From the IMG/VR virus record IMGVR_UViG_3300029156_000003, positions 1-52,988 of that record: a DNA stretch of 52,988 bases. The stretch is one strand, 5' to 3'. A program made the translations under genes and the position numbers. Below, piece after piece: positions 22,839 to 36,343 of the stretch. Origin of the DNA: a virus. Lineage: Duplodnaviria > Caudoviricetes. Each line of letters opens with the position of its first letter. Within the stretch, counting starts at the first letter, position 1. The notes under the pieces were generated by a model. That model saw only the letters and a list, made by a program, of their open reading frames with translations. It searched no databases and was not told the origin of the DNA.

Positions 22839-22848
22839 GAGCAACATT

Positions 22849-23076: not shown

Positions 23077-23096
23077 TCATCATTTAGGAGCCTGAA

Positions 23097-23342: not shown

Positions 23343-23400
23343 CAATCTGTCAGGATGTGTCAGGCAACTGGCAGAGATATGTAAGGAAAGTGTGAGAATT

Positions 23401-24141
23401 ATGAGTGAGACATTGGAACGCAATTTGGTTATAGGAGAGACCGGGAAATTCCCGTATGTATCGGAAGTCCCTGGCACTTGCATAGTTTGCTCCGCCGTTT
23501 GCGGGGATTTTGATGATATTATCCCAAGGAGAGGGGTGGTGATTTTTTGCGACAAGGATTTGTCAGCATCCATTTGCCTTAGATGTGCGCCTGTATTGGC
23601 TACGGCAATAGGATATTCAGTAGGTATAGCGACAAACCCTTCGCATCACACGACTGAGGAATTAGCACACAACAAAATGATTACTTTTTTCTGGAAAGGC
23701 ATTGCCGACGGCAGGGCCGTTCAGTTACGAGACATTTATTACGACAAAAAAGAGTTAGACGAGAGACTTTCGGAGTCAGACGAAAACAACCAAATCCTGT
23801 TAAGGCATATTCAATACCTAGATAGCGAAGCCGAGCGAACCGAAGGCGAAGGCTATGTATACCTGATGCACCGGGATGATGGGTGTCACAAGATTGGGCT
23901 ATCAGGCAAGCCAGATAGACGACTATCGCAGATACAGAGAGACTTCCCCTCAGCTACGTTGGTTCACACGATGCGGGCTGACGATATGCGCCAAGCTGAA
24001 AAGATGATGCACGATGAATTCTCGGCAAAGCGGAAGGATGGCGAATGGTTCAATTTGTCGGCTCAAGAAGTTGAGGCAATTTGTCAGCGCATAAGATTTG
24101 AGGACGGATGGTTTCTGACAAGACACGAGGCGACATTATGA
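23401..24141 (+). CDS. Cys-rich domain plus coiled coil plus GIY-YIG (T5orf172/MUG113-like) nuclease
   Basis: GYVYLM..GCHKIGLS..P.RRL..I..AEK.MH..F..KR..GEWFNL. Confidence 0.85.
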   Translation: MSETLERNLVIGETGKFPYVSEVPGTCIVCSAVCGDFDDIIPRRGVVIFCDKDLSASICLRCAPVLATAIGYSVGIATNPSHHTTEELAHNKMITFFWKGIADGRAVQLRDIYYDKKELDERLSESDENNQILLRHIQYLDSEAERTEGEGYVYLMHRDDGCHKIGLSGKPDRRLSQIQRDFPSATLVHTMRADDMRQAEKMMHDEFSAKRKDGEWFNLSAQEVEAICQRIRFEDGWFLTRHEATL

Positions 24142-25196
24142 CCGTTGATAGCCCATTTACCCCGATGCCGCACGAAATAGCCAAAGCCTACAACGACCCG
24201 ATTATTGCTCTGGTTTATGGGGCTGTGTGGGCTTATAGCCAGATGGCTCAACAGGTTTGCAATGCCTCCGTTGACACGATAGCCGAGCGCATCAGCGTAA
24301 GCCGAAAGACCGCCGAGCGGAAGCTAAAAGCGTTGTGCAAAGATGGCTATCTGATCGACCTGACACCCGATGTAACCCACGCCCCACATACGTACATTTG
24401 TTCTAACAAGGTATCTATATCAGTTAGTAAACACGATGGTAGTTACTACACGCAAGGTAAGTCAGAGAGTCTTACCTCCGATGATAAGGTAGGCCAGAGA
24501 GTCTTACCTAGGTCAGACTCAGAGTCTAGCCTAGGTAGGTCAGAGAGTCTTATAAAGAAACAACTACAAGATACAACCAAAGAAACAACTAATAGTGGGG
24601 GTGGGTTTGTCGCTGATCTGCCAGAAATCATTAATGCTATGGATGAGCGCGGTTATGCGCCATTGAGCAATGAGCAATTACGGGCCATTTATGATGCTTT
24701 GGCAGTGCCAGCCAACGAAACGCCGTTGATGTGGATTAGTTACGCACTAGATCGCAATCAGCAGATTGGGGATAAGTCGCTAGATTGCTTGACCGTTGTT
24801 TTGGAATCAATCAACACCGTTGGGTCGCTGGCAACATTCAAGCAATCAGACAAGCCGACCAAGCAAGGCGAACACCCGGCGATTGAGGCTTACAAGGCTG
24901 CAACTGGATATTACCCGCGTCGTAATTGCCAATCGGATATTATCAGCAAGATCGGTGATGACTCAGCCAGTGTTGCGAAGTGGGGCGAAGTGGTCAAGGC
25001 GTGGAAGCTGGCAGGATATAAATTCGACAACTACCAAGGGATGTTTGATTGGTTTGAAACTGGAATACCGACACGAAAGGAACGCAATTATGCAAGCAAT
25101 AAATCAGGCATTATCGGATTACAAGAGCAGAGTACCAAGCCCATTGCCCCAAAGCTCGTCTTTGACCCAGCAACCGGCCAAACCTACGCCCAATGA
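24138..25196 (+). CDS. Replication initiator Rep2 (HTH, internal iterons)
   Basis: CNASVDTIAERISVSRKTAERKLKALCKDGYL HTH; low-complexity iteron-coded linker; precedes loader gene. Confidence 0.8.
   Translation: MTVDSPFTPMPHEIAKAYNDPIIALVYGAVWAYSQMAQQVCNASVDTIAERISVSRKTAERKLKALCKDGYLIDLTPDVTHAPHTYICSNKVSISVSKHDGSYYTQGKSESLTSDDKVGQRVLPRSDSESSLGRSESLIKKQLQDTTKETTNSGGGFVADLPEIINAMDERGYAPLSNEQLRAIYDALAVPANETPLMWISYALDRNQQIGDKSLDCLTVVLESINTVGSLATFKQSDKPTKQGEHPAIEAYKAATGYYPRRNCQSDIISKIGDDSASVAKWGEVVKAWKLAGYKFDNYQGMFDWFETGIPTRKERNYASNKSGIIGLQEQSTKPIAPKLVFDPATGQTYAQ
24456..24566 (+). repeat. Origin 2: iterons within rep2
   Basis: CAGAGAGTCTTA at 24463, 24495, 24541 plus a degenerate copy; then AAGAAACAACTA. 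Confidence 0.75.
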
Positions 25197-25929
25197 TGGC
25201 GGTTGCCCCAAGTGCGGTGGCCTTGGCTTTTTTCGCCGAGATTTGCCACCCGATCATCCTGATTTCGGCAAGCCGGTTCGCTGTGACGGCGAAGCGCACG
25301 CCGTTGACCAGATGAAACGGTTGACCAGTTTGTCAGACCTGACCGACTACGAACGGCAAAAGCGACTGTCAGATATTGCCGTAAACGATGGCAACAGAGC
25401 CGTTATTGATGCTGCTCAATCAATGCTAGACGAGCCATTTGGCTGGCTGTACGTGTGGGGCGGGCCAGGTAATGCCAAAGGCGACACGCTAATTAGCCTG
25501 GTCAATGAGTTTGGGCGGCGTGGCAAAACGGCGTTGTATATCAAATTTAGTCGGTTGGTCAACATTATGCGTGATGCCAAAGTGGAGCGAAATGCCAAAG
25601 CCAGCCACTTGGAGAACAAAGGCGATCTAAATAATTATCAGTCACTTGGCTATCTCGACCTATTTGAGCGCGTTCGTTCGGTATACTGTTTGGCCGTTGA
25701 TGAGGTGGATAAGGTCAATATGACTGGCTTCGCTGAGGAATTCCGTTTCGACTTTTTTGATGAGCGATACCGATTGGCCTTGGCTGGCGAGGCTGTCACC
25801 GTGTTTGCCAGTCAGACATCGCCTGACCAAATGCCAAGCCCGTTGGCAAGCCGCTTTTACGATGGTCGCAATCAGGTTATCGAGAACACGCAGCCTGACG
25901 CAAGGCCCGCAATGCGGAGGTCGAAATGA
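25090..25929 (+). CDS. DnaC/IstB-like AAA+ helicase loader
   Basis: CPKCGG..C Zn motif; WLYVWGGPGNAKG (variant Walker A); LAVDEVDK Walker B; LASRF. Confidence 0.8.
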   Translation: MQAINQALSDYKSRVPSPLPQSSSLTQQPAKPTPNDGGCPKCGGLGFFRRDLPPDHPDFGKPVRCDGEAHAVDQMKRLTSLSDLTDYERQKRLSDIAVNDGNRAVIDAAQSMLDEPFGWLYVWGGPGNAKGDTLISLVNEFGRRGKTALYIKFSRLVNIMRDAKVERNAKASHLENKGDLNNYQSLGYLDLFERVRSVYCLAVDEVDKVNMTGFAEEFRFDFFDERYRLALAGEAVTVFASQTSPDQMPSPLASRFYDGRNQVIENTQPDARPAMRRSK

Positions 25930-26117
25930 ATAGGCCCGATATTATCAAGCTGATCGGAAATGACAAGCGGTTTATTGACGATCTAACCGCGTTTCAATAC
26001 GGCTATATCAATTACGAAACGCTCTTGCACCGCATCATACCCGTGTTGATTTATGGCAAGTTGTTTGTCGAGGAAGCCGAGGAAATCATTAGCGATAATC
26101 AGGAGGAAATCGAATGA
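25926..26117 (+). CDS. Hypothetical protein
   Basis: ATGA-coupled; GGAGG SD. Confidence 0.55.
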   Translation: MNRPDIIKLIGNDKRFIDDLTAFQYGYINYETLLHRIIPVLIYGKLFVEEAEEIISDNQEEIE

Positions 26118-26374
26118 AAGTCCACAAGCTAACTGGCGCGATCAACTACACCGACGCGCGTGATAATCCCAAAGCCGCAACGTTTAACTACGAGCTTCAA
26201 TGCTCATCCAACCGCGAAGAACAGCGCAAGCTCATCACTGATCGGTGGCTGCAAACCGATGCGCCAGCGTTGACAACAAGTAGCGATATTGCCAGCGTTG
26301 ACTTTCGCGCGGTGGCGTTGAGTGACGATGAGATGAGCGATAAATATGGTGCGGTGCAGGGGAGTTTGATATGA
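26114..26374 (+). CDS. Hypothetical protein
   Basis: ATGA-coupled; GGAGG SD. Confidence 0.6.
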   Translation: MKVHKLTGAINYTDARDNPKAATFNYELQCSSNREEQRKLITDRWLQTDAPALTTSSDIASVDFRAVALSDDEMSDKYGAVQGSLI

Positions 26375-26886
26375 GCCGCGAAATTAAACCTTGCCCCTTT
26401 TGCGGCAGCACTGACATATCATTCGTGATCGAGAACCCATCACACGGGAAATGGGGACATATCGAATGTCAATGCGGCGTGACAACTGGCGAAGTCAGAA
26501 CAGATTTTGACACCTCAGCCGATGCGCCTTGGCACGCTGATGCGCTGGCCGAATGGAATACCCGAAAGGATTACGAAATGCACTTTGTGGATTATCAAGT
26601 GAGATCGAAACTAACCGACCTGCAGAAAGGCAACTGGCAATATCATTTACTCGGCTTATCTGGCGAGGTTGGCGAGATCGCAAACAAGCTAAAAAAGGTC
26701 ATCCGCGATGATCGCAAGATTGACATTGATGATATGGCCGCCGAGCTTGGCGATTGCCTCTGGTATCTATCGCAACTTGCAACCGATATGGATATACCAC
26801 TGGATGACATAGCCCAGGCCAACCTGGACAAACTCGCAGATCGCGCCAAGCGAGGGGCGATTCAAGGCGATGGAGACAACCGATGA
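26371..26886 (+). CDS. Lar-family (restriction alleviation) domain fused to MazG-like NTP pyrophosphohydrolase
   Basis: KPCPFCG..C.CG..WNTR, then GLSGEVGEIANKLKK..ELGDCLWY..ANLDKL.DR..RG.I.G.GDNR. Confidence 0.85.
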   Translation: MSREIKPCPFCGSTDISFVIENPSHGKWGHIECQCGVTTGEVRTDFDTSADAPWHADALAEWNTRKDYEMHFVDYQVRSKLTDLQKGNWQYHLLGLSGEVGEIANKLKKVIRDDRKIDIDDMAAELGDCLWYLSQLATDMDIPLDDIAQANLDKLADRAKRGAIQGDGDNR

Positions 26887-27431
26887 GCAAACAACCGAGA
26901 CTATTCAAGTCAACAGCCAAGCGGTATCAGGCCGCAGCCGATAAATGTTGGAAGTTGCATAAAGAGCAGGGGTATATCACCAAAAAGCAGATCACCGCAT
27001 CGTTTGGTCATTCGCAATTTTACCCGCAGACAATGGCGACTGCCGCGAAGTATGGTATCGAATTCCCGCCGCCATTAGATCGGGTTACCGCCAATCGACG
27101 TATGAAATGTGACGCGCTCAACGCCAAATATGCAGAGATTAAAAGGCCGCTGACCCTGGCTGAATTCCGCAAGGCGACAAAAAACACAGTCACAAACAGA
27201 GATTCGATTCGCCAATGGATACAACGCCGCAAGGTCGAAGGCTACGAAGTGCCACCCGTTGAGGGCATCAACCTTGTGCCGTTTGTATCGGTGGCAGAGC
27301 AAAACGCGAAGCTCGACGCAAAACGCTGGCAAACGAAAGGCGAAGTGATTAAAGCCACGCGAATTGGCGGGTTATTTCTTGGAACGCCCGTTCGCAATGA
27401 AGGCGACCAAACGTGGTATGGGCTAATCTAG
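26883..27431 (+). CDS. Basic hypothetical protein, possibly DNA-binding
   Basis: 182 aa K/R-rich; coupled start. Confidence 0.6.
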   Translation: MSKQPRLFKSTAKRYQAAADKCWKLHKEQGYITKKQITASFGHSQFYPQTMATAAKYGIEFPPPLDRVTANRRMKCDALNAKYAEIKRPLTLAEFRKATKNTVTNRDSIRQWIQRRKVEGYEVPPVEGINLVPFVSVAEQNAKLDAKRWQTKGEVIKATRIGGLFLGTPVRNEGDQTWYGLI

Positions 27432-27723
27432 CCACCGCACTCGAAAGGGGGTGATGCCAAAACCGTGCCAGCCTAACACGCTGACACCCGCCAAGATGCA
27501 ACGGAGTCGCTACCACGTTGCACAGAGACAGCGTAGCGAAACCTATGTCTAGTGGAAGCAATTTTTACATTTTGAGCAGGTTCGCGGCTTGCCACACCTG
27601 CGATGATCTGACCAGTGCAAGCGAATGAATTCTTATTCCGCAGTAACGTTGTTCGATAATGTTTCAAACACAAGCCAGCCTCAAGGGGGCGTTTCCTGCG
27701 AGGCTGGCGACCCAATCGGAGGG

Positions 27724-28134
27724 ATGATGGGCAAGTATGACAAAAAAGCGGCTGACTACATAAATTCGTTTTGGGCAACCGTCCACCGGCCACCCGCGAT
27801 AAGAGAGATTCAGCGCGCGTGTGGCATACCATCCAGTGGCACGGTCAGAAATGTTTTAGACCGCCTTGTTTTGTCAGGCGAGTTTAACTATTCGTCTCAA
27901 AAATTCGGCGTGGGCAAAATCGTGCCTGCGTGGGTAGCAAAGGCAATAGACAACGCCACGCCACCGGGATTACCGGCGGTGGGAGACGTTCAGCCACGTG
28001 TGCAAAAATGCGATTGTGGCAAAGACGCACTGCATACGGTAGTGCTGACAGCAGGCGAAGAACAAACGCCGTATAATTACACGCTCTGCGAACAGTGCTA
28101 TCAGTCGGAGCAATCGCTCTATGCGATCAGATGA
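27724..28134 (+). CDS. LexA-like winged-helix DNA-binding domain plus C-terminal Zn finger
   Basis: YINSF....RPPAIREIQRACGIPSSGTVRNVLDRL; CDCG..LCEQC; no S24 peptidase domain. Confidence 0.75.
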   Translation: MMGKYDKKAADYINSFWATVHRPPAIREIQRACGIPSSGTVRNVLDRLVLSGEFNYSSQKFGVGKIVPAWVAKAIDNATPPGLPAVGDVQPRVQKCDCGKDALHTVVLTAGEEQTPYNYTLCEQCYQSEQSLYAIR

Positions 28135-28327
28135 GCAATTTATAACTTGGCTTCGCGGGCAAGGCATCGAAACCTTGCGCCAAGCCGAGCAACAGATGAA
28201 CATAAAAACCAAGTCGATCATCCTCAACCGAAATGAGCGGGCGTTGGTCTGGTTCATCCGTGAGCATAATCTGGATTGTCAAGAAATCCTTAAGGCGATT
28301 CAGGTTGACGTAAGCAATTCGGTCTGA
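28121..28327 (+). CDS. Hypothetical protein
   Basis: Overlapping chain. Confidence 0.5.
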   Translation: MRSDEQFITWLRGQGIETLRQAEQQMNIKTKSIILNRNERALVWFIREHNLDCQEILKAIQVDVSNSV

Positions 28328-28337
28328 TAAAATAAAC

Positions 28338-28351
28338 AGAACTTATATTCT
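28338..28351. promoter_or_regulatory. SOS-box-like site upstream of lysis/TCS operon
   Basis: AGAACTTATATTCT, 1 mismatch to AGAAC-N4-GTTCT. Confidence 0.45.
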
Positions 28352-28378
28352 ACTTTTCCGCAACGGCTGATTACAGTT

Positions 28379-28419
28379 AGGGCGATGACAGGCAATATGC
28401 CGATCATCGCCTTTTTTTA
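28379..28419 (+). terminator. Terminator/attenuator before holin
   Basis: GGCGATGA..TCATCGCC followed by T7. Confidence 0.7.
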
Positions 28420-28436
28420 TGCAACTTGGGGGTTGT

Positions 28437-28634
28437 ATGTCAAAGTCAAGATATTTGAGCAAAACATACTGGTGGGGTAGTAGCTTAATCGCCATCGCAC
28501 TGCTGGTACTAGCCTCATCGGAATTCCAGGCGTTTATCGACAGCCTGCCACCTGAATATGTCGGCTGGGCTACGGGGATCGCTGGCATCGTCACTTTGAT
28601 TTTACGCGAGTTGACCAAAGAGCCGGTTGGCTGA
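28437..28634 (+). CDS. Holin-like 2-TM protein
   Basis: SK..Y.SKT.W...(TM)...(TM)ILR..T.EP. pattern. Confidence 0.7.
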   Translation: MSKSRYLSKTYWWGSSLIAIALLVLASSEFQAFIDSLPPEYVGWATGIAGIVTLILRELTKEPVG

Positions 28635-28912
28635 TGCAAGAAATATTGTCAGACCCAACGCGGCTAAACGCCCTTAGCAGCACCGGCCTTGTTGCGCTCA
28701 TCATCGTGTCAATTCTGATATTTATCTTTTTTAAGTGGTATCCAGATTGGACACGCCGACGAGATCAAGAGGTCTCAAACGAGAAAGAGATTGAATTGGC
28801 AAAAGTAGCCTCTACCACAGAAACACGGATGAAAGAACTCGAAATGTTTACCAGCTTCCACCGGCGATTCGATGATATGAAAGATTGGATACAGGCGGCA
28901 ATGAATGATTGA
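28634..28912 (+). CDS. Single-TM coiled-coil protein (holin-like/lysis accessory)
   Basis: N-terminal TM, charged helical tail; TGATG coupling. Confidence 0.55.
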   Translation: MQEILSDPTRLNALSSTGLVALIIVSILIFIFFKWYPDWTRRRDQEVSNEKEIELAKVASTTETRMKELEMFTSFHRRFDDMKDWIQAAMND

Positions 28913-30011
28913 GTGGTTCGCACCTGAAACGTGGCAACTCCTAAGCTACATACGACTGGTGTACAACGCGGGCTTTGCGCTGATTATGTTTATCATCTCA
29001 GCGATGCCGGTGCTGATTAAATTCGAGGTTGACGAAACCACCGGCCAATCCACGCCACGCCTCAAGCGCGAGGCCAACCGCAGCATTGACTATGCCGTGG
29101 CTCTGTTCTTCTTCGGCATCGGGCTAAACGCCTTGAGCGAGGCGATCTTATTCCTGTTCAGTAATCACTTTACGCTCGGCTATTTTCTGGCGAATCTCAT
29201 TGGTCGATTCCCAACCTATTTACTGGCGATCTTGATGATTATCGGCACATCAACCAAAGGCAAGGAACTTGGAAAGGCTCTGCTTGCGACTGAGGATGTG
29301 CTAAAGCGCGAGGCGGCAGATGCCCATCGCCGTGCTGAGGAATACGCGCAGCTATTATCTATCGCCAGTCACGATCTGAATAGCCCGTCAAAAGGCATCC
29401 TCGGTGGGCTGCGAACGCTCAACGATGGCCTTGGCCTGACTGACGATGAAACCGCCGAGCTACTCGCCGAAATGGAGATCGCCGCGCAGATGGTTTGTGA
29501 TCGGATTGATGGCTTATCCGAGTACAACAAGACGCGGCGCATCGGCGATCGCACCGCCGCGATTGATATGGATGAGCTAATAGAGCAGCTTTGCAACGTG
29601 CTTGAGGCTGATATTGCCACCGTCGATGGTGACGTGGCGCGAGGCCGACTATTACCTGTGGCTGGCTCGAAGGTGCATATCGCGCAATTATTCCAAAATC
29701 TGATCTTGAATAGCCTGAAATACCGGCGCGATAATGTTGCGCCGCGTATCCGCATTACGGCACGACCCGCCGCCAAACGTGGCTTTGTGCAGTTCATCGT
29801 CTCCGATAATGGCATCGGCTTTGAAGCCGATCAAGCCGACAAAATCTTTCAGCTATACCGTTCGGCCCATAAAGACAAGATGGGGACGGGCGTGGGGCTG
29901 ACCATCGTCAAAAACATCGTCACCGCTCACGGTGGCGAGGTCTGGGCTGAGGCACAGCCAAACGGAGGCGCATCATTCTATTTGACATTACCGCAAGCGC
30001 AGCGAAATTAG
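28905..30011 (+). CDS. Membrane sensor histidine kinase (Cph1/bacteriophytochrome-type kinase core, ~3 TM input)
   Basis: H-box SHDLNSP, N-box QNLILNSLKY, G1 DNGIGF, F IFQLY, G2 GTGVGLTIVK, AHGGEVW. Confidence 0.95.
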   Translation: MIEWFAPETWQLLSYIRLVYNAGFALIMFIISAMPVLIKFEVDETTGQSTPRLKREANRSIDYAVALFFFGIGLNALSEAILFLFSNHFTLGYFLANLIGRFPTYLLAILMIIGTSTKGKELGKALLATEDVLKREAADAHRRAEEYAQLLSIASHDLNSPSKGILGGLRTLNDGLGLTDDETAELLAEMEIAAQMVCDRIDGLSEYNKTRRIGDRTAAIDMDELIEQLCNVLEADIATVDGDVARGRLLPVAGSKVHIAQLFQNLILNSLKYRRDNVAPRIRITARPAAKRGFVQFIVSDNGIGFEADQADKIFQLYRSAHKDKMGTGVGLTIVKNIVTAHGGEVWAEAQPNGGASFYLTLPQAQRN

Positions 30012-30013
30012 GC

Positions 30014-30406
30014 GTGCAAAATGTTCTGGTGGTTGAGGACGAAAAGCTACACCAGATGTTGATTAAACGAGCTTTTGACGGCAAGGGTCACAACGTGGTT
30101 TTTGTCGGCGATGGGCGCGAAGCCATCGCCTATCTCAAAACCCAGCCCGTCGATCTGGTTTTGCTCGATCTGAACTTGCCCTACGTCAGCGGCCACGAAG
30201 TGATGGCGCAAATGAATGGACACAAGTTTGCCGTAATCGTGATGACCAGCAGTGACAATCACGACGATGTGCAAAAAGCCTATGACCTGGGCGCGGCCTC
30301 CTACGTAGTCAAACCAGTGGACTACCAGCAGGTCATATCAAGAGCGGTAGACTGGTACTTTAGCAACGACGTGCGTTTACCGGGGGGGTTAAATGCAAAC
30401 GATTGA
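30014..30406 (+). CDS. Single-domain response regulator (Rcp1/CheY-like)
   Basis: VVEDE, LLDLNLP, MTSS...D..KAY.LGA.SYVVKP. Confidence 0.95.
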   Translation: MQNVLVVEDEKLHQMLIKRAFDGKGHNVVFVGDGREAIAYLKTQPVDLVLLDLNLPYVSGHEVMAQMNGHKFAVIVMTSSDNHDDVQKAYDLGAASYVVKPVDYQQVISRAVDWYFSNDVRLPGGLNAND

Positions 30407-30974
30407 CCATAAGATTTTACTGATCGAAGATGAAATTTTGTACCGAATGGAGATCAAGCGATACCTGGCGCGGTTCAAAGCGGTTTATGAGGCTGATGAC
30501 CTTGACCAAGCCTTTGAGCAATTGCTGAAGCACGCCGACATTGATCTGATTTTGCTTGACCTTGGGCTGCCCACCAGCGAGGGGGCTGACACCGTTGAGC
30601 AGGTTATCGCGTTTATCAGAGAACACAATCGGGTTGAGGATATGCCGATCATCGTACTGACTGGCAACACTGACCCTGACGTGCTTCAAGCGGCGTTGGT
30701 CGCTGGCGCGCAAGAGCATCTCGAAAAACACTTGATTAGCGGCTATGTGGTTGAGAAAACGGTGCATTTCGCCATCCGCAATAAGGCGAGAGAAGCGGTG
30801 CTACTTGAAAGCAATCGACGTTGGCGCAAGATCGCCGATCTGAAATGGCAGCAAATGACCCGCGAAGCGGCACTGATGCACGAATTACCATCACAATGGG
30901 CGTATAATGAGCTTATCGAATTACACAAGGCATTTCAAGCCGTGCCACGCAACACAAAGGATAATAACGATTAA
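30393..30974 (+). CDS. Response regulator: receiver domain plus unknown helical output
   Basis: LIEDE, LLDLGLP, IIVLTG, GAQEHLEK; ~65 aa C-terminal extension. Confidence 0.9.
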   Translation: MQTIDHKILLIEDEILYRMEIKRYLARFKAVYEADDLDQAFEQLLKHADIDLILLDLGLPTSEGADTVEQVIAFIREHNRVEDMPIIVLTGNTDPDVLQAALVAGAQEHLEKHLISGYVVEKTVHFAIRNKAREAVLLESNRRWRKIADLKWQQMTREAALMHELPSQWAYNELIELHKAFQAVPRNTKDNND

Positions 30975-33220
30975 TGGCTGTCAATTATGGTTTTGTCCAG
31001 ACTGCACTAAATACCTCGACAGGTACACAGTCGCTATCTGATAGTGAGATGACTGTAACGCCAAAGTTAGCCATTATGTGGCTAACCGAGGGGTCGGTGG
31101 CTGGCACAGATGTAGCTGATGCCGCTATTGGCTATGGGGCAACAGACGGGACAAACCAATGGGCGATGTCGGTTACGTCGCAGGATAATCAAGCGTCAAC
31201 CACATCAACACGGATACTCGATGCCACTAGCTGCATCGCGTTGCTTGATGGTGGCGCAACCTCGACAAAATTGGTCAATGCGACATTCGACAGCTTCGGC
31301 ACTGGTTCGGTAACAATTGACCATCAAGTAGCTCCTGCGGCTGGCTATCTCATCAATGTTGTATTGATCGGTGGGGCTGACTTTGACGTTTTGGTTGGCT
31401 ACATTGACCCAACTGACACCGATGACGGCACAACCGATATTACAACTACGTTTCAGCCCGAAGCTGGTTTATTTGGATACGTCGAACGCGATGATAACAC
31501 AAGCGGCGCGGGACACATCCGCTTTTCGCTTGGCTTTTTCAGCTACGTTTCATCAACAATCACGCAACGGGTTATTGCACAGCGCGAGTCAACGGGGGGC
31601 GGCGCAGGGCAGCCATCAATGGCGAGGCGAACAGACCGCATTGCCAGTTACCTAACGACTAGCGGCACAGAGGTATCAGGCTTTGAGGTGACTGATGTTA
31701 CCTCAACCACCGTTGAAATTACGACACATACGAGCGGGGCCGCTAGTCGGGATTTGCCATACATTATTTTCAATACCGACGGGCAAGGCGTTTGGGTTGG
31801 CGACATTGATAGTCCAACTTCAACTGGCGATGATTCCACGACTGGAATGGGATTCAAGCCAGCCGCATTTTTGCCAGTTATATCAACGCTTTACACCAGC
31901 AACGTAGATGCCAACGACAGCACGGCTGGTGGTTTTTCAATTGGCGCGGCTGTTACTGATATGGGCGATACCGACCTTGAGGGGGCAAGCCGCTTTACTA
32001 TCGAGGATGCTGCTGATCCGACAAACACCGAAAGCAGCACCGAAAGCAGCATTGTTCGTGTCACTCTGGACGATGGTGGAGACGGGGTTGCCGCCTCGTT
32101 TGGGTCATTTGACAGCGACGGTGTAACGCTGAATTGGGGAACAGTTGACGGCTCAAATGCGTGGGCTGGTATCGGACTGGCCTTTGCCGAGGCTCCGGCA
32201 AGCGGCACAGAATACACGCAAGCCACGGCTGGCTCGGTATCGCCAAGCGGGTTGATTTCAAAATCTATCAGCATTGACGCAGTAGGCGTGTTGTTCCAGG
32301 GCGGCAATGCCATCAAGCAATCTGCAAAATCCTTCGCGGGGGCCATTACGCCAAGCAACACATTAGCAACGGTTAAGACCTTTTTGGTGTTACTGGCTGG
32401 GTCGCTTGGGTTGTCGGGCGCAATAGCCAAGCAGGGCAACAAGGCGGCCAGCGGGAATTTAGGACTATCAGGTTCGCCGATAAAACAACTGGCCCGCTCA
32501 ATTGGCGGCACATTGACAACATCCGGCGCATTGGCAAGATCAACGCTCAAAAGTTTTGCGGGCGCATTAGGGCTGGCTGGCGATGCAATTGGCGAATTAA
32601 CCAGCAATACATTTTTTGCCAGCCTGGCGGGGTCGTTGTCCCCTGATGGCACATTGGGCAGATCAACATTGTTGAGCTTTGATGGCAGTTTGCCACTGTC
32701 AGGACAGACGATCAAGCAAACGATTAAAGCATTCGCTGGCAGCATTGCCCCCGCATCGACGCTTGTCACTGTAAAGACGTTTCTACTATCGGTTGCAGGG
32801 TCATTATCCCCATCGGGGCTGCTGACAACGTTGCCGCAAAAGTTAATCGCTGGCGTGATTGCTGGCAGCGGGTCGCTGGCAAAGAAAACGACCAAGACCC
32901 TTTCGGGGGCCATTTCGCCTATCGGCACACTTGCCAAGACATTCCTTTTGACCCTTTCGGGGGCCATTGCCCCAGGTGGGAGCCTGTCTAGCATAAAGGC
33001 TTTTTTCGTATCGCTATCGGGCGCAATTGCGCCAAGTGGCTCTGTCAGCAAGGCCATAAGCAAAAGTTTGTCAGGCGCATTGTCGCTGGTGGGGTCACTT
33101 AGCCGGGCCTCAGATGCAATACCCGTTACCGCAGCAATAAAAACGCTTACGTTCAAAACCCGTGATCTAACCTTCACGGTCAAGAAAAAAATACTGAGTT
33201 TCACGTTCAAAGCAAAGTAA
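30974..33220 (+). CDS. Virion structural/fibre protein with ~18-aa tandem repeats
   Basis: Acidic T/G-rich N-terminal half; C-terminal (L/F)xGxLxPxGxLxKxxxK repeats. Confidence 0.65.
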   Translation: MAVNYGFVQTALNTSTGTQSLSDSEMTVTPKLAIMWLTEGSVAGTDVADAAIGYGATDGTNQWAMSVTSQDNQASTTSTRILDATSCIALLDGGATSTKLVNATFDSFGTGSVTIDHQVAPAAGYLINVVLIGGADFDVLVGYIDPTDTDDGTTDITTTFQPEAGLFGYVERDDNTSGAGHIRFSLGFFSYVSSTITQRVIAQRESTGGGAGQPSMARRTDRIASYLTTSGTEVSGFEVTDVTSTTVEITTHTSGAASRDLPYIIFNTDGQGVWVGDIDSPTSTGDDSTTGMGFKPAAFLPVISTLYTSNVDANDSTAGGFSIGAAVTDMGDTDLEGASRFTIEDAADPTNTESSTESSIVRVTLDDGGDGVAASFGSFDSDGVTLNWGTVDGSNAWAGIGLAFAEAPASGTEYTQATAGSVSPSGLISKSISIDAVGVLFQGGNAIKQSAKSFAGAITPSNTLATVKTFLVLLAGSLGLSGAIAKQGNKAASGNLGLSGSPIKQLARSIGGTLTTSGALARSTLKSFAGALGLAGDAIGELTSNTFFASLAGSLSPDGTLGRSTLLSFDGSLPLSGQTIKQTIKAFAGSIAPASTLVTVKTFLLSVAGSLSPSGLLTTLPQKLIAGVIAGSGSLAKKTTKTLSGAISPIGTLAKTFLLTLSGAIAPGGSLSSIKAFFVSLSGAIAPSGSVSKAISKSLSGALSLVGSLSRASDAIPVTAAIKTLTFKTRDLTFTVKKKILSFTFKAK

Positions 33221-33241
33221 TTTATTTATTTAACAGGAGTA

Positions 33242-33862
33242 ATGATTATGTTTGATTCAAATGTAGATATGAATGGGTCATTAGGTGCAAAATTGATTTC
33301 GCCACCCAAGCCGCCGCTCAAGTGGCGTATCACCAACAAAGCGCGAAACCCTTATCTTTTCGGCTTGCTGTCAAACAAGGTCGCCAAGGGGCTGAGTGCG
33401 ATTACAGGCATCCCAACCTTGACGGCTGAATTGTCAGCACGGTTGGTCAAGGCCGATGGCTCTATGGTTGACTATGGTGTTGTGGGCTACCGCGTGGTGA
33501 CAACCGCGTTTGTCAATGAAATGGTTGACCAGCTACAGGCTGAGGATTCAACCTGGGGCGACTTCAAGTATCACGATTCGGGCGTTGGCACGACTGCCGA
33601 GGCAGTTGGCGACACCGATATGGAAACCACGGACGGTGAAAGCCGCGCCACTGGAACCCAAACCGAAGGCGCAAGCGCGAACATTTACAGAAGCGTTGGT
33701 ACGATCAGTTACACCAGCACCAAGGCAATCACTGAGCACGGCTTATTTAATGCCTCAACATCGGGCGAATTGATGGACAGAACTGTATTCAGTGCCATTA
33801 ATGTGACAAACGGTGACAGTATCCAATTTACCTACGAGTTGACCGTATCAGCAGGTAGCTAA
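33242..33862 (+). CDS. Virion structural protein
   Basis: AITEHGLFNASTSG.L.DR.VF.AINV..GDSIQFT motif of phage fibre/structural family. Confidence 0.7.
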   Translation: MIMFDSNVDMNGSLGAKLISPPKPPLKWRITNKARNPYLFGLLSNKVAKGLSAITGIPTLTAELSARLVKADGSMVDYGVVGYRVVTTAFVNEMVDQLQAEDSTWGDFKYHDSGVGTTAEAVGDTDMETTDGESRATGTQTEGASANIYRSVGTISYTSTKAITEHGLFNASTSGELMDRTVFSAINVTNGDSIQFTYELTVSAGS

Positions 33863-34209
33863 TGGCACTATCAATACATACAATTGATTTGGCAGTCGAA
33901 GGAACACAATCTGTTAGGCGTGGGGTTGGATACGTTTACGCCTTGGACGTATCCAACCGCAAAGCCGGCGGGCTTACCGACAGCGTGACATCGGCAACAA
34001 TCGAGTTGGTATTGCAACGCACCGAAGGGGATGTGTTGAATAGTTTTTTTGCCTCAACCACGACAACCTACAGCGACCAAACAATCACGTTGCCTGAGAT
34101 GACTGTGCCTGCGGGCGCAGAGAAGGGTGAGTACGTGCTAACCGTTGAATATGAGGCAGGTGGCTTTTCGCCAGACAGATTGGCGATTAAGTTCACGGTT
34201 ACGGATTGA
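33862..34209 (+). CDS. Small beta-rich structural protein
   Basis: TAATG coupling; Ig-like alternating pattern. Confidence 0.55.
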   Translation: MALSIHTIDLAVEGTQSVRRGVGYVYALDVSNRKAGGLTDSVTSATIELVLQRTEGDVLNSFFASTTTTYSDQTITLPEMTVPAGAEKGEYVLTVEYEAGGFSPDRLAIKFTVTD

Positions 34210-34255
34210 AATTAAGGTTACACTTCTTGCTTCGTTGTGTAACCATAGAGCGGAA

Positions 34256-34432
34256 ATGAAATACCGAAGCGCAAGACAGCGAGCCATTTGCACCGAGATA
34301 CGCGACTATCCCAAGTCGTGCAAGCATCGCCGACACTACAAACGGCTCGCGCACAAGATCGAACGGCAGAAAGTGAGATTGAGACTGAATGACCGACCAG
34401 CTAACATATTTCGTAAAGATTTCGTAATATGA
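34256..34432 (+). CDS. Small basic hypothetical protein
   Basis: 58 aa K/R-rich; coupled to TerS. Confidence 0.4.
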   Translation: MKYRSARQRAICTEIRDYPKSCKHRRHYKRLAHKIERQKVRLRLNDRPANIFRKDFVI

Positions 34433-34785
34433 CCGTTTTTAAGTGGACACAAAAAAAAGAAGATGCCGTAATGCTCTTGTCCCAAGGGCGTACGCAACAA
34501 GAGACATCAGAGGCCGTGGGTGTCACCTTGCGAACTATCCAAAATTGGGAGTCGGACATTGAGTTTGCGAAAGAGAAAGACCGGCTGAGTTTAATGGTTG
34601 GCATTGCATCACGGGCCGAAAGATTGCGAATTGCGATGAAAGCGGCGCGGCAGATGGTTTCAGATGAAAAGATAACCACGAATAAGGATTTGCTGGACTG
34701 GCTCAAGTTTGCCCAAAGCGAAACAGATGGTATTAAACTCGACCTTACCGCCCTCAGCGAAGCTAAAGCATCTTTGGCCGATTGA
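34429..34785 (+). CDS. terS: Terminase small subunit (HTH)
   Basis: GRTQQETSEAVGVTLRTIQNW HTH; immediately upstream of TerL. Confidence 0.75.
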   Translation: MTVFKWTQKKEDAVMLLSQGRTQQETSEAVGVTLRTIQNWESDIEFAKEKDRLSLMVGIASRAERLRIAMKAARQMVSDEKITTNKDLLDWLKFAQSETDGIKLDLTALSEAKASLAD

Positions 34786-36343
34786 GGACAAAATAGAATA
34801 TGAACGCCATCGTAACACGGCCAACGGCGACAAGCTTCTATGGCAACCCAACCCCGACAATGCCGACATTCCCAACCCGCAACGGTTGGCGGTTGAATCC
34901 GAGGCCGATATTGTGTTTTATGGCGGCGCGGCTGGCAGTGGCAAAACGGATTTGCTGCTAGGGCTTGCCGCAACGGAGCATAAAAGATCGGTTATTTTTC
35001 GGCGCGTGTTTCCCAATCAGCGATCAAACATTGAGCGAAGCCGCGAAATATATGGCAACGATGATGGCTACAATGAATCATTGCATCGCCGAAAATTAGC
35101 CGATAGCGGTATGCTGGAATTCGAGGCTTGCCAGCACGAAAAAGACAAATTCAAGCAACGGGGCAGACCACGTGACTTTTACGGATTCGATGAAGTGACG
35201 GAGTTCACCCGCAGCCAATTCGAGTTTATCATTGGCTGGAATCGCTCAACAAATCCAGACCAGCGATGCCGCGTAGTTTGCACGTTCAACCCGCCGACTG
35301 ATGAAAGCGGCTCTTGGGTATTGGATTACATTAGACCTTGGCTGGCTTATCTGTATCCAGATCACGAAGAATTTATCCACGACAACCCCGCCGCACCGGG
35401 GGAATTGCGATGGTTTACGACCATTAACGGAGTTGAGATTGAGTGCAAGAGCGGCGAGCCATTTGAGCAAGATGGCGAGGAATATACGCCACGAAGCCGC
35501 ACGTTTATACCTGGCAGGCTTGCCGACAATCCGCATTTGTCCAAGACCGGCTATGCTTCTGTGTTACAGGCGCTGCCAGAGCCATTACGGTCACAAATGC
35601 TTTACGGTGATTTTACCGCAACGGCAAAGCCAAACCCGTGGCAAGTGATACCAACGGCGTGGGTCAAGGCGGCGCAACGCCGATGGCTGGAGGCCGAAAA
35701 GCCCGCAATGGCATTGAGCGCCGTGGGCATTGATGCCACCAGAGGCGGCGATGATGAAGCACCAATCGCCAAACGATACGGACATTGGATAGATGAGCTA
35801 TTCATCATCGAAAATGCAGACACCGAAGATGGGCCAAGCTTCGCGGGGGCTGTGTACAACCATCTTGGCAATGAGCAACCGGGATACATCAACATTGATG
35901 TCATTGGCGTTGGCACGTCACCGTATGACAGCCTGAAAACAATGTATACCACCATTCCTGTCAACGCCTCCGAACGCTCTGAGTACGTTGACACCAAAAG
36001 CAAAAAGCTAAAGATGCGAAACAAGCGGGCTGAGTACCATTGGCGAATGCGCGAGGCGCTCGACCCAGAAACCGGCGACAATCTCGCATTGCCAAGCGAC
36101 ACGATGTTGCTGGTTGACCTATGTGCGCCACGCTACGAATACACAGCCAGCGGCGTGCAGATCGAATCTAAAGACGACATCAAAGCCCGAATAAACAGAA
36201 GTCCAGACCGAGGCGAAGCGGTGATGTTGGCTTGTCTGCCAGCCTCGACAATCCCGCCCGCCGCTGGCGAAACCATCGACACCGATATTGACATATACAA
36301 ATCAGAGCGTAGCAGCTCAAGGGGCCGACTATGGCAACGTTAA
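34709..36343 (+). CDS. terL: Terminase large subunit
   Basis: YGGAAGSGKT Walker A, GFDEVTE Walker B, FNPP, DNPHL, GIDATRGGDD nuclease, SPDRGEA; start may be 34727. Confidence 0.95.
   Translation: MPKAKQMVLNSTLPPSAKLKHLWPIEDKIEYERHRNTANGDKLLWQPNPDNADIPNPQRLAVESEADIVFYGGAAGSGKTDLLLGLAATEHKRSVIFRRVFPNQRSNIERSREIYGNDDGYNESLHRRKLADSGMLEFEACQHEKDKFKQRGRPRDFYGFDEVTEFTRSQFEFIIGWNRSTNPDQRCRVVCTFNPPTDESGSWVLDYIRPWLAYLYPDHEEFIHDNPAAPGELRWFTTINGVEIECKSGEPFEQDGEEYTPRSRTFIPGRLADNPHLSKTGYASVLQALPEPLRSQMLYGDFTATAKPNPWQVIPTAWVKAAQRRWLEAEKPAMALSAVGIDATRGGDDEAPIAKRYGHWIDELFIIENADTEDGPSFAGAVYNHLGNEQPGYINIDVIGVGTSPYDSLKTMYTTIPVNASERSEYVDTKSKKLKMRNKRAEYHWRMREALDPETGDNLALPSDTMLLVDLCAPRYEYTASGVQIESKDDIKARINRSPDRGEAVMLACLPASTIPPAAGETIDTDIDIYKSERSSSRGRLWQR

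What the first reader, a model, noticed from the sequence alone, without database searches (positions are those of the whole stretch)
28437..30974. Intact histidine kinase plus two response regulators translationally coupled to holin-like genes
Seen: holin-like, TM/coiled-coil, HK, RR1, RR2 and a structural gene form one chain with overlapping or abutting stops and starts. All H/N/G1/F/G2 boxes and receiver Asp/Thr/Lys residues are present, and neither RR has a recognisable DNA-binding output. Known: the kinase core and RR1 resemble the Cph1-Rcp1 arrangement, but the photosensory input is replaced by a short ~3-TM module. Inference: a phage-encoded phosphorelay in the lysis cassette that could sense membrane state, holin accumulation or superinfection and set lysis timing, or rewire host signalling late in infection. 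I know of no characterised equivalent.
Basis: partly seen in the sequence, partly recalled or inferred. Interest (0 to 1): 0.9.

Follow-up and report, generated by a model that had tools for sequence, protein, structure and literature searches.

The report
Phage-borne two-component signalling cassette
A bacterial virus carries its own intact membrane sensor kinase and two partner signalling proteins at the head of its late genes; such cargo is rare but not unique, and no direct evidence links it to the timing of cell lysis.

Summary
On an IMG/VR virus record (52,988 b, linear, CheckV 68%), eight genes form one tight + strand chain: two small membrane proteins (28437-28634, 28634-28912), a 368-aa histidine kinase (28905-30011), two receiver-only response regulators (30014-30406, 30393-30974) and a conserved structural-type trio (30974-34209). 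All kinase boxes and receiver Asp/Thr/Lys residues are present. The kinase core is bacteriophytochrome/Cph1-like, but its input is three membrane helices running straight into the His helix.

- Neither membrane protein reaches any holin family threshold.
- No endolysin is recognisable anywhere in the window.
- The kinase is a database singleton: the nearest relatives are 37-39% identical.
- Receivers were found in 0 of 48 terminase relatives and 2 of 50 records sharing the downstream module.

It is not an assembly chimera or a recent capture. RR2 has one 67%-identical orthologue. Phage-borne Cph1-type kinase plus receiver cassettes also recur: 25 of 33 IMG/VR records tested, including a complete 99-kb phage.

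Best reading: a functional accessory His-Asp system expressed with the late genes, with a membrane-borne input and a non-transcriptional output. A role as a lysis clock is possible (about 0.12) but untested.

The parts
28305..28333 (+). sigma-70-like promoter match (TTGACG-17-TAAAAT, TG before the -10). It overlaps the end of the upstream 68-aa gene.
   Evidence: It is the best of 14 matches in a 14-kb scan (10 of 12 positions), but the number of matches equals the shuffle expectation of 14.1. Weak lead only.
28379..28419 (+). Terminator-like hairpin (10-bp outer stem plus 4-bp inner stem) followed by U7, ending at the first ATG of TM1.
   Evidence: Fold of 28328-28440: -32.9 kcal/mol, z -3.46, 0 of 200 shuffles fold as well. 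Sequence read. No room is left for a promoter between it and TM1, so transcription of the chain must read through it (inference).
28437..28634 (+). TM1, 65 aa (71 aa from 28419). Two hydrophobic helices with a basic N-terminus, so a hairpin with both ends in the cytoplasm. A phage-type small membrane protein, with the size and topology of a class II holin.
   Evidence: Sequence. Pfam DUF7940 only, at 18.5 bits against a cut-off of 27. No PHROG. No GenBank phage tblastn match. In the ESM Atlas all 30 nearest clusters lack a common Pfam family; the top three shown are 89-100% viral (scores 0.91-0.92). The nearest named cluster is Phage_holin_1 at 0.89, a lead only.
28634..28912 (+). TM2, 92 aa. 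One N-terminal membrane helix followed by RRRD and a long charged helix, so the C-terminus is predicted to be cytoplasmic.
   Evidence: Sequence. No Pfam, PHROG, NCBIfam or PADLOC match. No GenBank phage match. Atlas nearest clusters are viral at 0.87-0.89; a Holin_BhlA-bearing cluster scores 0.86. All are leads only.
28905..30011 (+). Histidine kinase, 368 aa. Three N-terminal membrane helices with no extracytoplasmic domain. The third helix is continuous with DHp helix 1, which carries H156. A CA domain follows.
   Evidence: Pfam. Best solved-structure matches are 8f71 at 7.7e-25 and bacteriophytochromes at 3.6e-21. Invariant boxes. AF2 model pLDDT 79, with helices 7-37, 59-85, 89-175 and 181-209 and a CA domain at 218-364.
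30014..30406 (+). RR1, 130 aa, GTG start. A stand-alone receiver (E8 D9 D52 T78 K100).
   Evidence: Response_reg 1.8e-25. Solved-structure matches: PhoP receiver 6.7e-15, RcpA 3.4e-14, Rcp1 5.4e-11. Nearest database relatives are 41-45% identical, and several carry the JGI name Rcp1.
30393..30974 (+). RR2, 193 aa. A receiver (E12 D13 D56 T90 K112) plus a tail of about 70 aa predicted as two helices, with no recognised domain.
   Evidence: Response_reg 1.6e-16. Best solved-structure match is a GGDEF-type receiver, 6zxc, at 4.9e-11. One orthologue, P0122, is 67% identical, the same length and without indels: 96 of 123 receiver positions and 34 of 70 tail positions are identical.
30974..33220 (+). 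p748. The N-terminal 430 aa has no family. The C-terminal 300 aa consists of about 20-aa Ser/Gly/Ala/Leu-rich protein repeats. It is the first gene of a conserved structural-type trio.
   Evidence: No Pfam, PHROG or NCBIfam match. The repeat region matches large ORFs (363-1723 aa open frames) in 5 of 5 p206-bearing records tested; in L145, the one record read for this, the large ORF lies directly upstream of the p206 homologue.
33242..33862 (+). p206, a widespread phage protein of unknown function. In L153 its homologue follows genes that I read as tape-measure and tail genes from their size and composition.
   Evidence: 119 IMG/VR stretches match, the best at 72% identity. phrog_5417 at 4.7e-6. 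Context in L153 and L145.
33862..34209 (+). p115, the last gene of the coupled chain.
   Evidence: Its start overlaps the p206 stop by 1 nt. No family match. A 103-aa ORF holds the same position in L145; homology was not tested.

Best explanation
This is a functional accessory two-component cassette carried by a tailed phage and made together with its late (virion) genes.

The kinase sits in the inner membrane with almost nothing exposed outside. Its cue must therefore come from within the membrane, or from membrane partners. The two small phage membrane proteins made just before it are the obvious candidates.

The signal travels down the continuous third helix into the DHp. H156 is autophosphorylated from ATP, and the phosphoryl group passes to D52 of RR1 and/or D56 of RR2. 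Neither receiver has a DNA-binding or enzymatic domain. The output must therefore be protein-protein: RR1 acts like Rcp1/CheY-type single-domain regulators or as a phosphate sink, and RR2 acts through its helical tail, on phage or host targets.

Shown: gene integrity, domain identity, catalytic residues, translational coupling, phage context, physical continuity of the DNA, and absence from relatives.

Inferred: late expression by read-through of the upstream hairpin, membrane-borne input, branched phosphotransfer, and non-transcriptional output.

Unknown: the target.
For: - Intact domains and all catalytic residues.
- AF2 model with three N-terminal helices, the third continuous with the His-bearing helix, and no PAS, HAMP or GAF by Pfam.
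- Start/stop overlaps of 1-14 nt through the whole chain.
- A strong hairpin plus U7 immediately before the first gene.
- Replication genes upstream and packaging/head genes downstream.
- One contig of run X1 spans 23526-31632, and two contigs of run X2 span 22000-29394 and 29365-38000, all with 0 differences.
- G+C of the cassette is 0.46-0.555, against 0.47-0.55 in the flanks.
- The nearest relatives of HK are 37-39% identical, and of RR1 41-45%. It has therefore diverged long since any capture, without decay.
- RR2 has an indel-free 67% orthologue with every active-site residue kept.
- Accessory status: receivers are in 0 of 48 TerL-related records, 8 of them at least 90% complete. They are in 2 of 50 records with the p206 module, 0 of the 12 that are at least 90% complete.
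- The same kind of cargo occurs in other phages. Of 33 IMG/VR records with a related kinase core, 25 also hold receivers. These include RR-HK-RR in a DTR, 100%-complete 99-kb record, and HK-RR-RR(tail) beside primase and helicase.
Against: - No expression or biochemical data. No RNA run holds the stretch, which is no evidence either way.
- Pfam HisKA is below its cut-off.
- The kinase is a singleton among 5.8 billion clustered proteins and 1.84 billion representatives. Purifying selection on HK and RR1 therefore cannot be measured.
- The promoter match is no better than chance as a class.
- Which RR the kinase serves, and whether it cross-talks with host partners, is unknown.
- The host is unknown.
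- The record is only 68% complete.
Confidence: 0.55

Rival explanations
1. Lysis clock. TM1 is the holin and TM2 a holin partner. The kinase reads membrane energisation or holin build-up. The phosphorylated receivers then advance or delay triggering by binding lysis proteins.
For: - TM1 has class II holin size and topology, and all its nearest ESM clusters are small viral proteins.
- TM2 is a bitopic coiled-coil protein whose nearest clusters are viral.
- The chain sits directly after a terminator-like hairpin between the early and packaging genes. That is where lambdoid phages keep their lysis genes (recalled).
- The kinase has no external domain.
- A cellular precedent exists for a two-component system that responds to collapse of membrane potential and controls holin-like genes: LytSR-lrgAB (passages).
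Against: - No holin family threshold is reached.
- No endolysin or spanin is recognisable in the chain or anywhere in the window.
- TM2's predicted cytoplasmic C-terminus does not fit a spanin (sequence reading).
- The genes that follow are a structural-type module, not lysis genes.
- In other phages such kinase-receiver cassettes sit beside replication or anti-repressor genes, not lysis genes.
- The true lysis cassette may lie in the missing third of the genome.
Confidence: 0.12
2. Detocs-like defence or superinfection exclusion carried by the phage. The kinase senses an incoming competitor at the membrane. RR1 is the buffer receiver that soaks up leaky signal. RR2 is the effector.
For: - The three-gene layout (kinase, stand-alone receiver, receiver with a C-terminal extension) parallels DtcA/DtcB/DtcC as described in 10.1101/2023.01.24.525353 (passages).
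- The cassette is accessory and lineage-specific.
- There are weak PADLOC receiver matches: PD-T4-6 at 2.6e-6 and PDC-M60B at 3.8e-6.
Against: - The HK has no PADLOC match.
- It has no TPR sensor.
- RR2's 70-aa helical tail is no known killing domain: no PNP, nuclease or membrane-spanning effector.
- The genes are coupled to virion genes behind a terminator. That points to late lytic expression, not the constitutive expression in a lysogen that a defence system needs (inference).
- I could not confirm that PADLOC 2.0.0 holds Detocs models.
Confidence: 0.1
3. Inert passenger: a captured host cassette that is carried along but no longer signals or matters to the phage.
For: - It is absent from all sampled relatives.
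- HK and RR1 have no orthologues from which to show constraint.
- Pfam HisKA is sub-threshold.
Against: - All five frames are open and tightly coupled, with every catalytic residue kept, despite divergence to 37-45% identity from any relative.
- Composition is fully like the phage's.
- The RR2 orthologue keeps its length and active site at 67% identity.
- Phage genomes are under strong size pressure (established knowledge).
Confidence: 0.08
4. Artefact: host DNA joined to phage DNA by mis-assembly, or host flank of a provirus.
For: - The record is a linear fragment.
- Kinase genes in 'viral' records are often host flank; several of the 59 IMG/VR hits are proviruses or very large contigs.
Against: - The cassette lies 28 kb into the record, with phage genes on both sides on the same strand and with overlapping reading frames.
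- Contigs from two runs (two samples, one study) bridge both borders with 0 differences. These runs may be the source of the record, so this is not fully independent.
- There is no compositional break.
Confidence: 0.03

Closest known systems
Cph1-Rcp1 / bacteriophytochrome-type kinase with a stand-alone receiver
   Same: The kinase core is closest to this class. Solved bacteriophytochromes 9ys3 and 8uph score 3.6e-21, and many top hits carry JGI names 'Cph1' or 'light-regulated ... bacteriophytochrome'. RR1 matches RcpA at 3.4e-14 and Rcp1 at 5.4e-11, and Rcp1-named proteins are 37-39% identical. The kinase gene is followed directly by a receiver-only gene.
   Different: There is no PAS-GAF-PHY photosensory module; three membrane helices stand in its place. 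RR1 lacks the insertions seen in the RcpA alignment. A second receiver with a helical tail is present. The genes are in a phage.
Other kinase plus receiver cassettes in IMG/VR phage records (L087, L125 and others; uncharacterised)
   Same: They have Cph1-type kinase cores with one or two receiver-only genes adjacent, often with overlapping starts, inside phage gene contexts. Of 33 records, 25 hold receivers. L125 has the same order: HK, RR of about 130 aa, RR of about 175 aa with a tail.
   Different: They are only 23-36% (kinase) and 27-32% (receivers) identical. Their sensors are cytoplasmic PAS/GAF or CHASE3-like periplasmic domains (the domain names are my reading of the sequences, not a Pfam result). 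They sit next to replication, anti-repressor or tail genes, not behind small membrane proteins at the head of the late genes.
Detocs defensive two-component system (DtcA/DtcB/DtcC)
   Same: It is a three-gene phosphotransfer unit of kinase, stand-alone buffer receiver and receiver-effector, with a non-transcriptional output (passages of 10.1101/2023.01.24.525353).
   Different: DtcA has TPR repeats. DtcC carries PNP, nuclease or transmembrane killing domains. Here there is no TPR and no effector domain, and no PADLOC match for HK.
LytSR with lrgAB/cidAB holin-like genes (Staphylococcus)
   Same: A membrane kinase gene cluster lies adjacent to genes for small holin-like membrane proteins, and the system is reported to respond to collapse of membrane potential (passages of PMC2996381).
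   Different: LytR is a DNA-binding regulator that switches on lrgAB downstream. Here the membrane-protein genes are upstream in the same translationally coupled chain, and neither receiver binds DNA by any model. Pfam gave no LytS-type sensor or kinase domain and no LytTR domain. That LytS and LytR have those domains is recalled.
Known phage-borne two-component parts: agrC in C. difficile phage phiCDHM1; phoR/phoB auxiliary genes in soil phages
   Same: These are sensor kinase genes, and sometimes receiver genes, carried as phage cargo and proposed to feed into host signalling (PMC4124054 and PMC10987575, passages). PHROG families for such kinases and receivers exist: phrog_857, phrog_10912 and phrog_731.
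   Different: phiCDHM1 has no response regulator. PhoR/PhoB are orthologues of a named host system with a DNA-binding regulator. Here the NCBIfam PhoR model gives 77 bits against a cut-off of 334, and no equivalog cut-off is reached. The kinase comes with two receivers of its own.
Intramembrane-sensing kinases with accessory membrane proteins (LiaS-LiaF, BceS-BceAB, SaeS-SaeP/Q, DesK); recalled, not tested
   Same: They have a minimal or absent extracytoplasmic loop, and the signal is taken from the membrane or from co-encoded membrane partners.
   Different: Those are cellular systems with DNA-binding regulators. No sequence relationship was tested. A partner role for TM1/TM2 is unproven; the complex job gave no verdict (see Tried and rejected).

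Membership tests
Class I (HisKA-type) sensor histidine kinase | CA (HATPase_c) domain with N, G1, F and G2 boxes | tested here: met
   HATPase_c scores 81.8 bits against a cut-off of 26.4. N265, N269, D301, G303, G305, F315, G327, G329 and G331 fall in invariant or near-invariant columns of 20 kinases. The boxes align to 8f71 and 9ys3.
Class I (HisKA-type) sensor histidine kinase | DHp helix with the phospho-accepting His in an H box | tested here: met
   H156-D-L-x-x-P is invariant in alignment A3 and aligns to the H box of solved kinases. The Pfam HisKA model itself is below its cut-off (16.8 vs 26.9 bits).
Class I (HisKA-type) sensor histidine kinase | ATP-dependent autophosphorylation and transfer to a receiver Asp | not testable with these tools
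   This needs biochemistry.
Phytochrome-type kinase (Cph1 / bacteriophytochrome) | PAS-GAF-PHY photosensory module binding a bilin | tested here: not met
   No PAS, GAF or PHY domain by Pfam. Residues 1-115 are three helices. Only the kinase core resembles this family.
CheY-like receiver (Response_reg) | Pfam model above its cut-off, and the acidic pair, phospho-Asp, Thr/Ser and Lys | tested here: met
   RR1 scores 89.7 bits and RR2 60.9 bits against a cut-off of 30.2. RR1 has E8 D9 D52 T78 K100; RR2 has E12 D13 D56 T90 K112.
Rcp1/RcpA-type single-domain regulator | Receiver-only protein encoded next to a Cph1-type kinase, and closest to Rcp proteins | tested here: inconclusive
   RR1 is receiver-only and adjacent to the kinase. 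RcpA scores 3.4e-14 and Rcp1 5.4e-11, but the PhoP receiver scores slightly better at 6.7e-15. Rcp1-named hits are 37-39% identical.
Holin (any Pfam/PHROG holin family) | Match to a holin family model | tested here: not met
   TM1 matches only DUF7940, at 18.5 bits against a cut-off of 27. TM2 matches nothing. Neither has a PHROG. Atlas neighbours with holin families score below 0.9 and are leads only.
Holin (any Pfam/PHROG holin family) | Small membrane protein with 1-3 helices and a charged C-terminus | tested here: met
   Read from the sequences. TM1 has two hydrophobic helices and ends RELTKEPVG. TM2 has one helix and then a charged helix. No transmembrane predictor was available.
Holin (any Pfam/PHROG holin family) | Encoded beside an endolysin (lysis cassette) | tested here: not met
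   No muralytic domain in 48 ORFs. No six-frame match to PF00959, PF01510, PF01464, PF13539 or PF01183. PF00182 also gave none, but its control was silent. The record is 68% complete.
Detocs | DtcA-type kinase with TPR sensor, and DtcC receiver fused to a cell-killing effector | tested here: not met
   No TPR and no effector domain by Pfam or NCBIfam. No PADLOC match for HK. Only the three-gene outline is shared.
PhoR/PhoB (phage phosphate auxiliary genes) | NCBIfam equivalog score above the cut-off | tested here: not met
   PhoR model: 77.3 bits against a cut-off of 334.2. PhoB model on RR1: 59.6 bits against 296.2.
LytSR | LytS-type sensor/kinase domains and a LytTR DNA-binding regulator | tested here: not met
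   The Pfam scan of HK, RR1 and RR2 returned only HATPase_c, weak HisKA and Response_reg. Which domains define LytS/LytR is recalled.

The most novel reading that the evidence does not exclude
The two phage membrane proteins and the sensor-less membrane kinase form one membrane-state sensor at the head of the late operon. Through two receivers that bind proteins rather than DNA, it sets the moment of lysis, or aborts a superinfected cell, post-translationally. This would be a phage-owned counterpart of LytSR-type control of holins, and the first phosphorelay wired into a lysis decision.
Probability: 0.12. Interest if true: 0.85.

Novelty: new variant of a known kind. Interest (0 to 1): 0.5.

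Why it matters
Phages are known to borrow single signalling parts such as AgrC and PhoR. A complete kinase with two receivers of its own, fused by translational coupling into the late genes, means the virus can measure something for itself late in infection and respond faster than transcription allows.

The survey here shows that this is one instance of a scattered, unstudied class of phage cargo: 25 of 33 IMG/VR records with a related kinase also carry receivers, one of them a complete genome. This instance is the most tractable for asking what a phage senses. Its sensor is reduced to three membrane helices, it has two candidate membrane partners, and its outputs are two small proteins that can be used as baits.

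If the link to lysis or exclusion were shown, it would add a new layer to lysis timing. If not, it remains a clean example of an auxiliary regulatory module.

Tried and rejected
- **Scripts.** The Python box was lost at the first script. No tblastn over loci, tree or dN/dS could be run. The surveys were done with the genome search instead.
- **Earlier findings.** Whether they share the synteny is unknown.
- **HK, RR2 and P0229 in IMG/VR.** HK alone found no relative. The RR2 alignment found none. P0229 found one distant kinase on a 241-kb record.
- **Portal.** No IMG/VR relative.
- **p748 and p206 in GenBank phages.** No match for either.
- **p748 in TerL relatives.** 0 of 48.
- **TM1 and TM2 in 50 p206-bearing records.** 0 of 50 each. 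The tool warns that an empty answer shows nothing.
- **DUF7940 in 49 records.** Only the window's own sub-threshold match.
- **Host.** TerL in genome contigs gave a Dongia MAG (45%), a Gemmataceae MAG (41%) and a 26% hit. The nearest cultured phages infect Limnohabitans, Acidovorax, Caulobacter, Aphanizomenon, Planktothrix and Bordetella at 42-47%. No host call is possible. No tRNA was found.
- **Complex prediction.** HK(1-170) x2 with TM2 gave no verdict and is not used as evidence.
- **RR2 structure.** The AF2 model from a 2-row alignment had pLDDT 43, too poor for a fold search.
- **Expression.** No RNA holder was listed for the stretch.
- **Region after p115.** A hairpin without a U-run; the fold is not unusual (z -1.25).
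- **p748 repeats.** They exist at the protein level only.
- **Literature.** Searches found no paper describing a phage two-component system tied to lysis; I saw their listings only. Passages were read in PMC4124054, PMC10987575, 10.1101/2023.01.24.525353 and PMC2996381. Supplements are closed. The lists of phoR/phoB-carrying phages (PMC10987575, Supplementary Data 7 and 10) and of Detocs effector types (Table S5) were not seen and might hold closer cases.
- **Recalled from memory, not from a call:** lambda PR'-tR'/Q layout and the position of lysis and stx genes; S21 pinholin size and topology; the positive-inside rule; LiaF, BceAB, SaeP/Q and DesK; LytS/LytR domain names.

Full report
**What the window is.** The window is a whole IMG/VR virus record of 52,988 b, classed linear, with a CheckV estimate of 68% complete. 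Genes on the + strand from about 13 kb run through replication functions: a replication initiator at 24108-25196, a DnaC-like loader ending at 25929, and a Lar/MazG fusion at 26371-26886. After the finding come a small HTH protein (34429-34785), TerL (34709-36343), portal (36331-37887), a head morphogenesis protein and a protease/major-head fusion. The finding therefore sits between the early and the packaging genes of a tailed phage.

**The observation.** Reading the junctions base by base confirms the chain.
- TM1 stop and TM2 start overlap in TGATG.
- The HK start overlaps TM2 by 8 nt.
- RR1 starts with GTG, 2 nt after the HK stop.
- RR2 overlaps RR1 by 14 nt, behind a run of G.
- p748 starts in the TAATG of the RR2 stop.
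- The coupling continues through p206 and p115 to 34209, followed by a 220-nt gap.

Pfam gives HATPase_c at 6.2e-23 for HK, and Response_reg at 1.8e-25 and 1.6e-16 for the two regulators. It finds nothing else in them. NCBIfam adds no output domain, and no equivalog cut-off is reached. Against solved structures the kinase aligns over residues 137-365 to 8f71 (7.7e-25) and to bacteriophytochromes (3.6e-21), with the H, N, G1, F and G2 boxes in register. In a 20-sequence alignment H156, N265, N269, G303, G305, F315, G327, G329 and G331 are invariant columns and D301 is nearly invariant. RR1 has E8 D9 D52 T78 K100, and RR2 has E12 D13 D56 T90 K112.

An AF2 model built on that alignment (pLDDT 79) shows helices 7-37 and 59-85, and one uninterrupted helix 89-175 that carries H156. 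The second DHp helix and a confident CA domain follow. The loop 39-60 is rich in Lys/Arg, and the N-terminus and the 86-88 turn are not. By the positive-inside rule (recalled) the kinase is N-out, with essentially nothing exposed outside the membrane.

**Is it real DNA, and is it old?** Two runs from two samples of one aquatic-metagenome study hold the stretch. One contig of X1 covers 23526-31632. Two contigs of X2 cover 22000-29394 and 29365-38000. All have no differences, so both borders of the cassette are bridged. These runs may be the record's own source.

G+C across the cassette (0.46-0.555) is that of the flanks. The kinase has no relative above 39% identity. This held in a word-indexed search of 5.8 billion clusters (2,281 hits at E <= 1e-5 among the 8,000 candidates scored). 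It also held in an exhaustive HMMER pass over 1.84 billion representatives (869,398 hits at E <= 0.001). RR1's nearest relatives are 41-45% identical. This is neither a chimera nor a recent capture.

**Is it conserved in phages?** Mostly not.
- HK finds nothing in IMG/VR by itself.
- Of 74 loci with a related TerL (best 58%), I searched the records of 48 for receiver domains. None has one; 8 of them are at least 90% complete.
- p206 has 119 IMG/VR matches, up to 72% identical.
- In 5 of 5 such records tested, the repeat part of p748 matches a large ORF. In L145 that ORF lies directly upstream of the p206 homologue, and a 103-aa ORF follows it. In L153 the p206 homologue follows genes I read as tape-measure and tail genes.
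- The trio p748-p206-p115 is therefore a conserved structural-type module.
- Of 50 of these records (50 of the 80 kept), 2 hold a receiver. Both are the same REC-HD-GYP-like gene about 3.4 kb downstream, in a different arrangement.

The five genes TM1 to RR2 thus look like a lineage-specific insert in front of a conserved module.

There are two exceptions. RR2 has an orthologue of identical length, 67% identical: 96 of 123 receiver positions and 34 of 70 tail positions, with no indels and the active site kept. It lies on short Logan contigs that I could not read. One 358-aa protein, P0229, is 37% identical to HK and aligns from the second membrane helix onward, with the same layout.

**Are the first two genes holins?** TM1 (65 aa from 28437) has a basic N-terminus, two hydrophobic helices and a short charged end. 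That is class II holin size and topology. TM2 has one N-terminal helix, then RRRD and a long charged helix, so its C-terminus is predicted to be cytoplasmic. That does not fit a spanin.

Neither reaches any family threshold. DUF7940 scores 18.5 bits against a cut-off of 27 for TM1, and TM2 matches nothing. Neither has a PHROG, and neither has a GenBank phage match. In the ESM Atlas the nearest clusters shown for both are mostly viral small proteins. The nearest named ones are holin families at 0.89 and 0.86, which the tool rates as leads only.

No endolysin is recognisable. There is no muralytic domain in 48 ORFs scanned with Pfam. There is no six-frame match to five common endolysin families; a sixth search had a silent control. 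A third of the genome is missing, and the real lysis cassette may be there.

**Expression context.** Between the stop of the upstream 68-aa gene (28327) and TM1 lies a hairpin with a U7 tail (28379-28419). Its fold energy is -32.9 kcal/mol, z -3.46, and 0 of 200 shuffles fold as well. It abuts the first ATG, so any transcript of the chain must read through it.

Forty-five bases upstream is the best sigma-70-like match of a 14-kb scan. As a class, however, such matches are at shuffle level: 14 found against 14.1 expected. The layout recalls lambdoid late promoters with a terminator overcome by antitermination (recalled). The gene just upstream (27625-28134) has a weak LexA-like HTH and four Cys near its end. 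I treat late, read-through-dependent expression as an inference.

**How common is such cargo?** An alignment of 20 kinase cores found 59 IMG/VR loci with related kinases, 23-36% identical. In the 33 of these that lie on records of at most 115 kb, 25 also hold receiver domains. In the records I checked, these lie next to the kinase.
- L087 comes from a 98,965-b record with direct terminal repeats and 100% estimated completeness. It has RR(135 aa)-HK(372 aa)-RR(137 aa) with overlapping frames, between an Ant anti-repressor, an RNA ligase, a phosphohydrolase and a tail sheath.
- L125 has HK(499 aa)-RR(133 aa)-RR(175 aa, with a tail) between a primase, a Dda-like helicase and a thymidylate synthase.

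These are only 27-32% identical to the window's receivers. PHROGs already holds families for such kinases and receivers. In print, phage phiCDHM1 carries agrC without a regulator (PMC4124054, passages). Soil phages are reported to carry phoR and phoB (PMC10987575, passages). My searches found no paper on a phage two-component system tied to lysis (listings only).

**What it most likely does.** The safest mechanistic statement is a working His-Asp system. Its kinase takes its cue from within the membrane or from TM1/TM2. It passes phosphate to two receivers, and these act by protein contacts. I give this 0.55.

The position, the membrane-only sensor and the LytSR-lrgAB precedent (PMC2996381, passages) speak for it. 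The missing endolysin, the unproven holins and the non-lysis neighbours of other phage cassettes speak against it.

A Detocs-like defence reading (0.10) shares the three-gene outline of kinase, buffer receiver and receiver with an extension. It lacks the TPR sensor, a killing domain and any PADLOC support for the kinase.

An inert passenger (0.08) and an artefact (0.03) are unlikely for the reasons given above. The remainder is for roles not thought of.

**Verdict.** This is a new variant of a known but unstudied kind of phage cargo. It is of moderate interest as it stands, and of high interest only if the membrane-state or lysis link were shown.

Noticed in passing
window 28305-28440 and 27625-28134: A promoter-like site is followed within about 45 nt by a strong hairpin plus U7, directly before the late chain, with a -10-like TATATT at 28344-28349 in between. 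The gene just upstream encodes a 169-aa protein with a weak LexA-type HTH and a C-terminal four-Cys cluster. The layout resembles lambdoid Q-dependent late promoters (recalled), so that protein is a candidate antiterminator.
   Followed up: partly
window 30974-34209; L145 3463-8935; L153 7620-11629: A large protein with about 20-aa Ser/Gly/Ala/Leu repeats, a 206-aa protein and a protein of about 100-115 aa form a three-gene module. It is found in many uncultured phages (119 IMG/VR matches to p206). GenBank phages gave no match to p206 at 1e-10. Its function is unknown. The long antisense ORF 31891-33210 is probably a by-product of the repeat composition.
   Followed up: partly
L153 11926-12912 (and L154): Another phage with the same structural module carries a 328-aa receiver with an HD-GYP-like C-terminal half (my reading of the sequence) just after the repeat protein. 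This is a second, independent link between this module and a receiver protein.
   Followed up: no
L087 5235-7148; L125 5359-7790: Complete RR-HK-RR and HK-RR-RR cassettes sit inside clear phage contexts. L087's record has terminal repeats and 100% estimated completeness. Phage-borne Cph1-type two-component cassettes appear to be a recurrent, undescribed cargo class.
   Followed up: partly
window 8355-9410 (-): An actin-like (ALP_N, ParM-type) protein matches at 1.1e-5, just under the Pfam cut-off, in a minus-strand block. No integrase was found among the 48 ORFs scanned. The phage might persist as a plasmid.
   Followed up: no
window 13357-13884 and 23281-24141: Two proteins carry T5orf172/MUG113 domains, one of them fused to a Cro/C1-type HTH.
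   Followed up: no
window 26371-26886: A single 171-aa protein matches a Lar-like restriction alleviation family in its N-terminal half and MazG-like pyrophosphatase in its C-terminal half.
   Followed up: no
window 43817-45337: A 506-aa protein in the tail region has Sortilin-Vps10/BNR-type repeats.
   Followed up: no
window 23526-31632 in run X1: The contig that carries the replication genes and the cassette has a mean word depth of 800, against 312 and 243 for the contigs on either side. A low-depth contig (13) branches off at 31603-31632, inside p748. This may mean that several phage variants in the sample share this segment, or it may be amplification bias; contig depths cannot decide. 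Loose ends at the contig breaks look like adaptor or primer sequence.
   Followed up: no
RR2 residues 124-193 (window 30762-30974): The tail is predicted as a long helix, a turn and a second helix. It holds two His residues (H163, H178) that are invariant in the one orthologue, and H163 sits in an H-E-L-P context faintly like a kinase H box. There are too few sequences and the model is too poor to say more.
   Followed up: partly
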